In this document: positions 31,391 through 32,855 of the stretch, in pieces
How positions within the stretch are numbered: position 1 is the first letter of the stretch
How the letters are laid out: each line of letters opens with the position of its first letter
From: Escherichia phage adrianh
Sequence record: MN850614.1
Strand: one strand, 5' to 3'
Length of the DNA: 64,000 nucleotides
The notes under the pieces: generated by a model
What the model was told of the DNA's origin: nothing
Databases searched by the model: none
The model's input: the letters and a program-made list of their open reading frames with translations, nothing else
Program-made: the position numbers and the translations under genes

Positions 31391-31855
31391 TTACTTTGGA
31401 TATACACTGTCAAGATAAATGTCAGCTTCCATTCTACGTCTGTTTTTCAGACCGTTTGATGTGACCTTCTTACCTTTGACTGTAACCTTGTTCCACCACT
31501 GCATAGCTTCTGCGCAACCTACCTTATTACCAGCATTGTGGCGCTTGATAAATGTAGAATCCTGCATAGCTGTGATGCCGATGTTGTATGTTTCACTTAC
31601 AAGTGCATCAAACTCGTTCTGAGAAGTTGGAACCTTGATAGCTTTGTTCACTGCTGTAACAAACTTTTCAACATCTGCGAGAAGATAATGTTCAGCTTGT
31701 TCAGCAGTAATTATCATACCCATCTTAACAGGTTTTCCGTCAATACGGATTGTACCATACCCGATTGTAGGGATTCCGGCAGAGTCTTCGTAAGCCTCTA
31801 ACTTCAGACCTTCAAAGAACTTAATAGCTTCTAAACCTTTTCTTGAGAGTTGCAT
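31391..31855 (-). CDS. Lysozyme (T4 e-type, glycoside hydrolase family 24)
   Basis: 154 aa; EGLKLEAYEDSAGIPTIGYG matches the Glu/Asp/Thr catalytic region of T4 lysozyme. Confidence 0.8.
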   Translation of the reverse strand: MQLSRKGLEAIKFFEGLKLEAYEDSAGIPTIGYGTIRIDGKPVKMGMIITAEQAEHYLLADVEKFVTAVNKAIKVPTSQNEFDALVSETYNIGITAMQDSTFIKRHNAGNKVGCAEAMQWWNKVTVKGKKVTSNGLKNRRRMEADIYLDSVYPK

Positions 31856-32487
31856 TATGCCTCCCCTGCTGGGTTAACTGTAACTGTTGCCGCATTAGAT
31901 GTTACAGAGCCACCTGCGCCAGTCACTACACAGGTGTAGCTTCCTGCATCAGCAGCGGTTGCACCTTCTTTGGTGTAAGTTGCAGCAGTTGCGTCTGGGA
32001 TGACTTCCTCACCTTTCTTCCACTGATAACCTGTCGCACCTGTTGCCACAACATTCAGTGTTAAGGTCTCACCTTCAGTGATTTCTTGATTGGTTGGTTG
32101 CTGAGTGATTGATGGTGGCTTGATAGCATCCTTCAACTTAGCATTCAACATTGAGAACGGTTTAACTCTTGCCAGCCATTCACAATAAACTGTATCAACG
32201 TCTTTACCATTGATAATTGCATATTGTAAGTCCATGAAGAAGTCAGACGTTCTCATTTGAGCACCAACGCTGTAAAGCAACTCATCACTAAATGGAACTT
32301 TGTAGTCTGGTTTGTAGTCAAACTTCTTAACTTCTGCAATATCAGCTTCAGGCCAATACGAACTATAGGTAAGTGGTAAAATAGCCTCTTGATATGTTCT
32401 AAAATCATATCTCTTACCAGCCTTTACGTTCGCAACGAAGCCCTTCACAAACTCTTTGAAGTCTGGGTAAGTCTTTGCTTTAATCAT
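31855..32487 (-). CDS. Hypothetical protein with C-terminal Ig-like domain
   Basis: 210 aa; N-terminal half paralogous to next gene; C-terminus Thr/Gly/Ala-rich beta-like segment (YTCVVTGAGGSVTSNAATVTV). Confidence 0.5.
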   Translation of the reverse strand: MIKAKTYPDFKEFVKGFVANVKAGKRYDFRTYQEAILPLTYSSYWPEADIAEVKKFDYKPDYKVPFSDELLYSVGAQMRTSDFFMDLQYAIINGKDVDTVYCEWLARVKPFSMLNAKLKDAIKPPSITQQPTNQEITEGETLTLNVVATGATGYQWKKGEEVIPDATAATYTKEGATAADAGSYTCVVTGAGGSVTSNAATVTVNPAGEA

Positions 32488-32855
32488 TTCTTTTTAGCCT
32501 CTAAATGTGCGTTTAGTCTAAAATAACCTTTGTGATGCGGAGATACATCACCAACAACAATACCTTTAACCTTATAGCCTTTACCAATTACATACTGGAT
32601 ATCCATAAGGAATCTTCCAAGTCCAACAATATGGAACATTGGATATAATAGGTTCTCAGAATCTGGAATATTGATTTCAGGTTTGTAGGTACGCTGTTCG
32701 ATTGTTGGTGTAATATCTTCTTCAGGCCATTTGCTGAGTCTCCATGTCAAAGGTGTTGGGATAACATCATTAAGGTTGTACCTTTCACCATTTTGCACGG
32801 AATTGATATAGGATTGTAGGAAGCAATAAAAGTCTTTTGCACTCTTAGCTTTCAT
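32484..32855 (-). CDS. Hypothetical protein (paralogue of 31855-32487 N-terminal region)
   Basis: 123 aa; shared MxKAK..DF..F, GxRY and FxMDxQYxI blocks with the neighbour. Confidence 0.45.
   Translation of the reverse strand: MKAKSAKDFYCFLQSYINSVQNGERYNLNDVIPTPLTWRLSKWPEEDITPTIEQRTYKPEINIPDSENLLYPMFHIVGLGRFLMDIQYVIGKGYKVKGIVVGDVSPHHKGYFRLNAHLEAKKK

What the first reader, a model, noticed from the sequence alone, without database searches (positions are those of the whole stretch)
31855..32855. Tandem paralogues, one extended by an Ig-like domain
The two adjacent minus-strand genes share an N-terminal domain (MxKAK..DF, GxRY, FxMDxQYxI blocks); the upstream one (210 aa) carries an added C-terminal Thr/Gly/Ala-rich beta-sandwich-like segment typical of Ig-like domains found on phage surface or decoration proteins. 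Duplication followed by domain gain next to the lysozyme gene suggests an adaptive accessory function such as carbohydrate binding or adhesion.
Basis: seen in the sequence. Interest (0 to 1): 0.45.

Follow-up and report, generated by a model that had tools for sequence, protein, structure and literature searches.

The report
Capsid decoration gene and Ig-less paralogue
The 210-aa gene is the already-described Hoc-like capsid decoration protein of Felix O1-like phages, here carrying one immunoglobulin domain; its 123-aa neighbour is an old, conserved copy of the capsid-anchor domain alone, and no one has assigned it a function.

Summary
The two adjacent minus-strand genes are paralogues (34% identity over 121 aa, E=3e-16), and the 210-aa one ends in an I-set Ig domain.

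The window is a Felixounavirus. The 210-aa protein (gene A) is Hex-Dec (Sf14 gp20), the Hoc-like monomer seen by cryo-EM at the centres of the pentamer-adjacent hexamers of the T=9 capsid (PDB 9NCF_S, 9C2D_S). Variation from one to four Ig domains across the genus is already published.

New detail from this work:
- This one-Ig allele equals an ECML-1-like three-Ig allele minus exactly 501 bp, joined at a 25-nt in-register microhomology.
- Other alleles are mosaics with at least six different junctions.

The 123-aa gene (B) lies upstream in the direction of transcription. It is the capsid-binding domain alone. Neither structure paper mentions it.
- It overlaps A by ATGA and is transcribed late.
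- It is under purifying selection (dN/dS about 0.1).
- It is conserved across Felixounavirus, Mooglevirus and Suspvirus.
- It is absent from the published Felix O1 virion protein list and from both cryo-EM models.
- It is dispensable: knock-down in SUSP1 has no fitness effect, and one sublineage has lost it.

"Duplication followed by domain gain" is not supported, because all other family members carry a C-terminal extension, four of the five lineages an Ig-like domain. Interest is modest.

The parts
31855..32487 (-). Gene A: Hex-Dec, the Hoc-like hexamer-centre capsid decoration protein, 210 aa, one-Ig allele
   Evidence: phmmer against PDB: 9ncf_S (Bas63 Hex-Dec) E=6.7e-218 and 9c2d_S (Sf14 gp20) E=2.4e-152. 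phrog_3995 E=2.4e-125. The Felix O1 orthologue gp36 was found in CsCl-purified virions by mass spectrometry (PMC3185647).
32134..32487 (-). Capsid-binding domain (CapBD) of A, residues 1-118, with Arg79 and Arg107
   Evidence: Near-identical over residues 1-124 to the modelled part of 9ncf_S. In Sf14, R79 and R107 form salt bridges with major capsid protein Asp221 (PMC11821841). The major capsid protein of this window (47188..48291) has D221.
31876..32118 (-). Single I-set Ig-like domain of A, residues 124-204
   Evidence: Pfam Ig_3, Ig_2 and I-set. T5 pb10 Ig domain (5lxk_A) E=1.3e-11. AF2 pLDDT about 96, with Foldseek top hits on I-set Ig domains. In 36-nt windows it matches Ig4 of a four-Ig reference allele throughout.
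32086..32110 (-). Deletion junction: 25-nt microhomology AATCACTCAGCAACCAACCAATCAA
   Evidence: Gene A follows the ECML-1 three-Ig allele from its 5' end (2 mismatches in 402 nt) and from its 3' end (0 mismatches in 256 nt). The two alignments overlap only in these 25 nt. The length difference is exactly 501 bp. This stretch is the longest exact in-register run between Ig1 and Ig3 of ECML-1.
32484..32855 (-). Gene B: Ig-less paralogue consisting of the capsid-binding domain alone, 123 aa
   Evidence: BLASTP against A E=3e-16. phmmer against 9ncf_S residues 3-117 E=6.1e-12. The AF2 model matches only 9c2d_S and 9ncf_S in the PDB (TM 0.6, prob 1.0). phrog_4463 E=5.9e-80. dN/dS 0.07-0.18.
32484..32501 (-). 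B/A junction: GAGG Shine-Dalgarno (32498..32501) and ATGA stop/start overlap (32484..32487)
   Evidence: Read directly from the sequence. Both features are conserved in Felixounavirus and Mooglevirus, whereas the T_AAA_AAG run is not.
32879..32894 (-). G+C hairpin AGGGGC-TGAT-GCCCCT, 23 nt upstream of B
   Evidence: Read directly from the sequence. The same sequence is listed as a rho-independent terminator in Felix O1 Table 2 (PMC3185647) and in the wV8 record.
31391..31855 (-). Endolysin (T4-type lysozyme), last gene of the unit; its TAATG overlaps the stop codon of A
   Evidence: Pfam Phage_lysozyme E=4.8e-40. phrog_7.
31364..31381 (-). Intrinsic terminator closing the B-A-endolysin unit
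   Evidence: 7-bp stem with 5 G-C pairs followed by TTTTTTATTTT. Annotated as a terminator in wV8.

Best explanation
The window is a Felix O1-like myophage (Felixounavirus).

Gene A encodes Hex-Dec. Its 118-residue N-terminal domain plugs as a monomer into the centre of the 60 pentamer-adjacent hexamers of the T=9 capsid. There, Arg79 and Arg107 form salt bridges with Asp221 of the major capsid protein. The C-terminal I-set Ig domain projects outward, as in T4 Hoc or T5 pb10. The placement on the capsid is shown for orthologues and inferred here from near-identity.

This allele has one Ig domain because 501 bp (two units) were removed from a three-Ig allele by in-register recombination at a 25-nt identity between repeats. 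The same process, at other junctions, produced the one- to four-Ig alleles of related phages.

Gene B is an old tandem paralogue that consists of the capsid-binding domain only. It sits immediately upstream of A, is translationally coupled to it, and forms a late unit with A and the endolysin gene. It is a real gene under purifying selection, but it is accessory.

My best guess for B (about 35%, inferred only) is that it still docks on capsid hexamer centres, but weakly, transiently (for example on immature capsids) or in competition with Hex-Dec, so that it does not stay on purified virions. The next most likely option (about 30%) is that it now binds a different partner.
For: Identity of A:
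- 232 phage records match at 78-98% DNA identity, nearly all of them Felixounavirus.
- PDB 9ncf_S E=6.7e-218 and 9c2d_S E=2.4e-152.
- The cryo-EM papers place this protein at the centres of facet-edge hexamers and name R79/R107 and D221 as contacts.
- A has R79 and R107, and the capsid protein of this window is nearly identical to 9ncf_A and has D221.
- Felix O1 gp36 is in virions.

Deletion origin of this allele: exact 501-bp difference, 25-nt junction and a 100% identical 3' 256 nt. Mosaic units in seven other alleles. Span lengths in a sample of 50 records suggest 1/2/3/4 Ig in 12/21/11/6 of them.

Gene B:
- Paralogy and same predicted fold.
- dN/dS 0.07-0.18.
- Present at 74% identity or more in about 232 of 252 records, including Mooglevirus and Suspvirus.
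- ATGA overlap and GAGG conserved.
- Felix O1 ORF36 and ORF37 both peak at 60 min.
- B keeps the family-wide invariant polar residues D85, Q87, K109 and N115.
Against: For A, nothing substantial. The proposed adhesion role is untested in this genus, and knock-down of the SUSP1 orthologue has no laboratory fitness effect.

Against B binding the capsid:
- The Felix O1 orthologue gp37 is not among the 17 virion proteins found by mass spectrometry, although smaller proteins were detected.
- Both cryo-EM studies report no density on the other 20 hexamers, and neither lists a B orthologue.
- The two anchoring arginines are not conserved in B: Gly at the position of R79, His or Gln at R107.
- B is dispensable: SUSP1 agp126 is 'Not Fit', and one sublineage carries only a decayed remnant.
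- The AF2 model of B has only moderate confidence (pLDDT 65).
Confidence: 0.8

Rival explanations
1. One reading: an ancestral small protein duplicated, and one copy then gained an Ig domain to provide a new carbohydrate-binding or adhesion function.
For: The two genes are paralogues and only one has Ig. C-terminal domains in this family have been exchanged: I-set in some lineages, Big_2 in others. Gain events therefore do occur. The NJ tree cannot resolve the order of events.
Against: Every other lineage has an extension after the anchor domain: phiEa21-4 group, P0102, P0103 and P0104 carry an Ig-like domain, and P0105 a Lys/Ser-rich tail. The phiEa104 locus has a single anchor+Big_2 gene in the same position and no B. 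This window's allele has lost two Ig units.
Confidence: 0.15
2. B is a stable second decoration protein that fills the 20 three-fold hexamers left empty by Hex-Dec.
For: B has the same fold and the same family-invariant residues. It is expressed late and is coupled to A. Hex-Dec cannot anchor on the three-fold hexamers because Asp221 is displaced there, and B lacks exactly those arginines.
Against: No density on those hexamers in Bas63 or Sf14. Absent from the Felix O1 virion protein list.
Confidence: 0.1
3. A (and B) are tail proteins, as annotated in most GenBank records and in PHROG 3995.
For: Annotations such as 'tail protein', 'major tail protein' and 'HK97 major tail subunit'.
Against: Cryo-EM places the orthologues on the capsid, and the Bas63 paper states explicitly that the tail annotation is wrong.
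Confidence: 0.02
4. B and A are joined into one protein by a programmed -1 frameshift at T_AAA_AAG just before the stop codon of B.
For: A lies in the -1 frame relative to B, and the window has GCT AAA AAG AAA TGA at the junction.
Against: The heptamer is not conserved: wV8 has GCT GAA AAG, and Sf14 and Moogle have GCT AAG AAA. A has its own conserved ATG and Shine-Dalgarno sequence. The Felix O1 virion protein list gives gp36 a mass of 31.6 kDa, the size of the unfused product, and gp37 (B), whose peptides a fusion would contain, is not among the listed proteins.
Confidence: 0.02
5. B is a functionless, decaying duplicate.
For: Lost in one sublineage. No knock-down phenotype in SUSP1. Its dN is about twice that of the A anchor domain.
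Against: dN/dS 0.07-0.18. Length fixed at 122-124 aa across three genera and an uncultured lineage at 45% identity.
Confidence: 0.04

Closest known systems
Hex-Dec of Escherichia phage Bas63 (PDB 9NCF chain S) and gp20 of Shigella phage Sf14 (PDB 9C2D chain S)
   Same: Gene A is the orthologue. The anchor domain is nearly identical to Bas63 and about 89% identical to Sf14. It has the same position next to the endolysin gene, the same R79 and R107, and the same capsid protein with D221.
   Different: One Ig domain here, against four (Bas63) and three (Sf14). The single Ig corresponds to the last unit of the longer alleles.
T4 Hoc
   Same: A non-essential monomer at hexamer centres that displays I-set Ig domains. 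PHROG 'Hoc-like head decoration' families match the Ig part at about 1e-14.
   Different: In Hoc the capsid-binding domain is C-terminal and topologically different (PMC12609058). There is no sequence similarity outside the Ig domains. Hoc has no Ig-less paralogue that I know of (from memory, not tested).
T5 pb10
   Same: [quoted passage not shown] The Ig domains are similar (8zvi_a E=7.2e-12, 5lxk_A E=1.3e-11).
   Different: The match covers only the Ig domain (residues 131-207). The anchor domains show no detectable sequence similarity.
Erwinia phage phiEa21-4 / phiEa104 gene 38 ('conserved structural protein')
   Same: A distant homologue of the anchor domain (BLASTP against A E=3e-15) in the same position between the gp43-like gene and the endolysin gene.
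   Different: It carries a Big_2 domain instead of I-set Ig, and that locus has no B-type paralogue.

Membership tests
Ounavirinae Hex-Dec / Sf14 gp20 family (gene A) | N-terminal capsid-binding domain of about 118 aa, homologous to the modelled chains 9ncf_S and 9c2d_S | tested here: met
   E=6.7e-218 and 2.4e-152, aligned from residue 1.
Ounavirinae Hex-Dec / Sf14 gp20 family (gene A) | One or more C-terminal Ig-like domains | tested here: met
   Pfam Ig_3, Ig_2 and I-set above threshold. AF2 plus Foldseek.
Ounavirinae Hex-Dec / Sf14 gp20 family (gene A) | Capsid-anchoring Arg79 and Arg107, and capsid protein Asp221 | tested here: met
   All three residues are present.
Ounavirinae Hex-Dec / Sf14 gp20 family (gene A) | Physically bound at the centres of pentamer-adjacent hexamers in the virion | not testable with these tools
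   Shown for Bas63 and Sf14 by cryo-EM and for Felix O1 gp36 by mass spectrometry. Inferred here from near-identity.
Ounavirinae Hex-Dec / Sf14 gp20 family (gene B) | Homologous capsid-binding domain | tested here: met
   E=6.1e-12 against 9ncf_S residues 3-117. Foldseek TM 0.6, prob 1.0, and no other PDB fold.
Ounavirinae Hex-Dec / Sf14 gp20 family (gene B) | C-terminal Ig-like display domain | tested here: not met
   The protein ends 3-5 residues after the anchor domain, and there is no Pfam hit.
Ounavirinae Hex-Dec / Sf14 gp20 family (gene B) | Anchoring Arg79 and Arg107 | tested here: not met
   Gly at the position of R79. The nearby Arg81 is Thr in most orthologues. His or Gln at R107. 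K109 is retained.
Ounavirinae Hex-Dec / Sf14 gp20 family (gene B) | Presence in the virion | tested here: inconclusive
   From the literature only: not in the Felix O1 list of 17 virion proteins (which was filtered at 25% coverage or more), and not in the Sf14 or Bas63 models. The raw mass-spectrometry data were not examined.
T4 Hoc family | Hoc-type C-terminal capsid-binding domain after the Ig domains | tested here: not met
   The domain order is reversed and only the Ig part matches Hoc-like PHROGs. The topology is reported as distinct. The protein works like Hoc but is not a member of that family.

The most novel reading that the evidence does not exclude
Gene B is an Ig-less regulatory paralogue of a decoration protein. 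It would occupy capsid hexamer centres transiently, either on procapsids or on the 20 three-fold hexamers, and so help set the observed pattern in which Hex-Dec sits on only 60 of the 80 hexamers, or time its attachment. This would be a decoration-protein 'placeholder' of a kind not described for tailed phages.
Probability: 0.15. Interest if true: 0.55.

Novelty: new variant of a known kind. Interest (0 to 1): 0.3.

Why it matters
Gene A itself adds little, because it is a known decoration protein that most records mis-annotate as a tail protein. The exact deletion junction and the mosaic alleles show how the number of displayed Ig domains changes quickly: by in-register recombination between repeats that are only 63-67% identical in DNA. 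This is relevant to phage adhesion (mucus or surface binding) and to using this protein as a display scaffold.

Gene B is the open item. It is a conserved, late, translationally coupled copy of the capsid anchor alone. It might explain why Hex-Dec decorates only a subset of hexamers, or it may have a new partner. It is cheap to test, because both genes appear dispensable.

Tried and rejected
- Tandem Repeats Finder on the three- and four-Ig alleles found nothing, because the repeats are only 63-67% identical in DNA.
- A plain blastn mapping of alleles onto a four-Ig reference ran through paralogous repeats and was uninformative. I replaced it with a sliding-window assignment.
- An internal duplication of the anchor domain (the pseudo-C2 lobes reported for Bas63) is not detectable by profile comparison of the two halves (hhalign E=0.19).
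- A programmed frameshift joining B and A was rejected because the slippery run is not conserved.
- The candidate late-promoter motif TATTTATAAG is not enriched: 8 matches against 9.65 expected.
- There is no consistent charge difference between B and the A anchor domain.
- No Rfam, PADLOC or NCBIfam matches were informative.
- IMG/VR scans with P0099 and P0103 found no loci.
- The word-indexed protein search with the A anchor domain returned almost only proteins of about 210 aa, so it gave no length distribution.
- Two phage transposon-essentiality preprints contain no Felix O1-like phage.
- The NJ tree does not resolve whether the duplication came before or after the split from the phiEa21-4 lineage.

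Full report
**Observation**

The region holds two overlapping minus-strand ORFs. Gene A is 31855..32487 (210 aa) and gene B is 32484..32855 (123 aa). BLASTP of A against B gives 34% identity over 121 residues, E=3e-16. Residues 124-204 of A pass the Pfam thresholds for Ig_3, Ig_2 and I-set. AlphaFold2 models that part at pLDDT about 96, and it superposes on classical I-set/C2 Ig domains (MALT1 Ig2 TM 0.90, Robo1 Ig5, titin, and the phage Moo19 decoration protein). One detail was wrong: in the direction of transcription B is upstream, and A is downstream, directly before the lysozyme gene.

**What the window is**

The 2.3-kb region matches 232 phage records by megablast, most at 90-98% DNA identity and nearly all Felixounavirus (Felix O1-like myophages). 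The structural module lies on the plus strand from about 41.5 kb. The capsid protein gene (47188..48291) is nearly identical to chain A of PDB 9NCF.

**What gene A is**

A search of PDB sequences gives two strong matches. One is 9ncf_S ('Immunoglobulin-like domain protein', 460 aa, phage Bas63) at E=6.7e-218. The other is 9c2d_S (Sf14 gp20, 372 aa) at E=2.4e-152. Both align from residue 1.

The two cryo-EM papers describe this protein as follows (PMC12609058, PMC11821841):
- It is named Hex-Dec in Bas63 and gp20 in Sf14.
- It is a Hoc-like monomer whose N-terminal capsid-binding domain of about 118 residues sits in the centres of the pentamer-adjacent (facet-edge) hexamers of a T=9 capsid.
- The Ig domains are flexible and were not resolved.
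- In Sf14, Arg79 and Arg107 form salt bridges with capsid protein Asp221.
- The Bas63 paper states that the usual 'tail protein' annotation is wrong and that the genus has one to four Ig domains.

Gene A of this window has R79 and R107, and its capsid protein has D221. The Felix O1 orthologue gp36 was found in CsCl-purified virions by mass spectrometry (44% coverage) and is transcribed late (PMC3185647). Gene A is therefore an already-known protein. Its adhesion or aggregation role is proposed by analogy with T4 Hoc and has not been tested in this genus.

**How the one-Ig allele arose**

The closest relative is phage ECML-1 (97.9% identity), which has a three-Ig gene of 1134 bp against 633 bp here. 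The evidence for a deletion is as follows:
- Aligned from the 5' end, the two genes differ at 2 of the first 402 nt.
- Aligned from the 3' end, the last 256 nt are identical.
- The two alignments overlap in one 25-nt stretch, AATCACTCAGCAACCAACCAATCAA (window 32086..32110).
- This stretch is the longest exact in-register identity between Ig1 and Ig3 of ECML-1.
- The length difference is exactly 501 bp, equal to two Ig units.

I then assigned each 36-nt window of every Ig unit to the best-matching unit of a four-Ig reference (MET-P1-301). The results were:

| Phage | Unit composition |
|---|---|
| ECML-1 | 1-2-4 |
| wV8 | 1-(2\|3)-4 |
| Felix O1 | 1-(2\|4) |
| radambza | (1\|2)-4 |
| REP9 | (1\|2)-4, with a different junction from radambza |
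| EC6 | (1\|4) |
| window and VSe11 | 4, joined at the first codons |

Copy number therefore changes by repeated, independent, in-register recombination at short conserved motifs (ITQQPTNQ, GYQWKK, DAGSYTCVV). This happens even though the units are only 63-67% identical in DNA, too diverged for Tandem Repeats Finder. The one-Ig state arose at least twice.

In an evenly spaced sample of 50 records, span lengths suggest 12 with one Ig, 21 with two, 11 with three and 6 with four. These counts are inferred from length, not from reading each ORF.

**What gene B is**

B matches the same PDB chains over their modelled anchor domain (E=6.1e-12). Its AF2 model has moderate confidence (pLDDT 65, pTM 0.67). 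It matches only 9c2d_S and 9ncf_S in the PDB (TM about 0.6, probability 1.0). B ends a few residues after the domain and has no Pfam, NCBIfam or PADLOC match.

Distribution and selection:
- It forms its own PHROG (4463, 'unknown function').
- It has a narrow, length-invariant family of 122-124 aa.
- It is present at 74% identity or more in about 232 of 252 phage records, including Mooglevirus (Sf14 gp21, Moogle gp89) and Suspvirus (SUSP1 agp126).
- An uncultured lineage has both a B-like and an A-like protein (P0099 and P0100).
- Nei-Gojobori dN/dS is 0.07-0.18. dN is about twice that of the A anchor domain.

B is therefore a functional gene and not a decaying copy.

**Expression**

The stop codon of B overlaps the start codon of A (ATGA). 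A GAGG lies 10 nt upstream of that start codon. Both features are conserved across genera. The stop codon of A overlaps the start of the endolysin gene (TAATG). A strong terminator follows the endolysin gene. A G+C hairpin, listed as a terminator in Felix O1 and wV8, lies 23 nt upstream of B. In Felix O1, RT-PCR puts ORF36 and ORF37 in the late class, together with the portal and tail genes. I could not determine where this late transcript starts.

**Evidence bearing on the role of B**

Against a stable virion role:
- Felix O1 gp37 is not among the 17 proteins found in virions, although proteins as small as 9.7 kDa were found.
- Both cryo-EM papers see no density on the 20 three-fold hexamers.
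- Neither paper mentions the paralogue: the words 'paralog' and, for Sf14, 'gp21' are absent from the main texts, and the only 'gp21' hits in the Sf14 supplement refer to SPP1 gp21.
- The two anchoring arginines are not conserved in B (Gly at the position of R79, His or Gln at R107), although K109 and the family-wide D85, Q87 and N115 are kept.

Evidence that B is dispensable:
- In the transcriptome-wide dCas13d knock-down of SUSP1, both agp125 (A) and agp126 (B) are 'Not Fit' (PMC11879866, supplementary files 8 and 16). The screen also scored the lysozyme as 'Not Fit', so its sensitivity is limited.
- REP9, Z31 and EcF-vB share one identical decayed remnant of B, with the start codon lost and an internal deletion of about 220 bp. 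About 19 of 252 records give only the weak match expected from gene A; the three of them that I examined carry this remnant.

My ranking for B:
- About 35%: a weak, transient or competing binder of capsid hexamer centres.
- About 30%: a new partner.
- About 10-15%: an interaction with Hex-Dec itself.
- About 10%: a stable decoration of the three-fold hexamers.
- Under 5%: no function.

All of these are inferences.

**Polarity of the domain change**

A profile search of 1.84 billion representative proteins found only 12 clusters. Apart from the B clade, every member has something after the anchor domain:
- I-set Ig in A, P0100 and P0103.
- Big_2 in P0101 and P0102, and a weaker Big-like match in P0104.
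- A Lys/Ser-rich tail in P0105.

P0101 is gene 38 ('conserved structural protein') of Erwinia phages phiEa21-4 and phiEa104. That locus reads gp43-like gene, anchor+Big_2 gene, endolysin gene, with no B. An ancestor with an anchor plus a display domain, and a B that lost or never copied the display part, is the more parsimonious reading. The tree does not resolve the timing. 'Duplication followed by domain gain' is therefore not supported, though it is not excluded.

**Comparison with known systems**

A is a member of the Hex-Dec/gp20 family: all sequence-testable features are met, and physical placement is inferred. It works like T4 Hoc and T5 pb10 but is not a member of either family. Only the Ig part is similar, and relative to Hoc the domain order is reversed. 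B shares the anchor fold but fails two features of the family (display domain, anchoring arginines). Its presence in the virion is unsupported.

**Verdict**

The finding is real, and the Ig-bearing gene is already explained by published structures. The additions from this work are the exact recombination junctions behind Ig copy-number change and the recognition of a conserved, late, coupled, dispensable anchor-only paralogue of unknown role. Interest is modest (0.3). The most novel reading still open is that B acts as a placeholder or competitor that shapes Hex-Dec occupancy (probability about 0.15).

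Noticed in passing
L005 2305-2498; L006 2305-2498; L008 2290-2520: Phages REP9, Z31 and EcF-vB share one identical decayed remnant of gene B, with the start codon lost, frameshifts and an internal deletion of about 220 bp. This points to a single loss event in one Felixounavirus sublineage.
   Followed up: yes
L006 2498-3072; L003 1555-2939: The Z31 Hex-Dec gene has a stop at codon 135 and a partly deleted Ig unit, which would leave only the anchor domain. The four-Ig allele of MET-P1-301 is frameshifted in Ig1. I could not tell whether these are real or sequencing errors.
   Followed up: partly
phage records (e.g. DaR-2019a/b, pinkbiff, vB_EcoM_Shy, KEP3): By span length, 6 of 50 sampled records appear to carry a four-Ig allele, whereas the Bas63 paper reports four Ig only for Bas63 among 18 ICTV species.
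   Followed up: partly
window 32856-32902: A hairpin annotated as a terminator in relatives lies 23 nt before the start codon of B, and no promoter-like site is found there. How the late B-A-endolysin transcript starts, or reads through the hairpin, is unexplained.
   Followed up: partly
window 34113-34484 (+): [quoted passage not shown]
   Followed up: no
window 34566-35981 (+) and 36148-41046 (+): A DUF2828 'RNA-binding protein' gene (so annotated in relatives) is followed by a cluster of 24 tRNA genes.
   Followed up: no
L014 6001-6615: In Erwinia phage phiEa104/phiEa21-4 the syntenic gene combines a distant homologue of the anchor domain with a Big_2 domain. This shows that the display domain has been swapped within the family.
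   Followed up: yes
window 32488-32496: The run T_AAA_AAG lies just before the stop codon of B, and A is in the -1 frame. It looks like a frameshift site but is not conserved in wV8, Sf14 or Moogle.
   Followed up: yes
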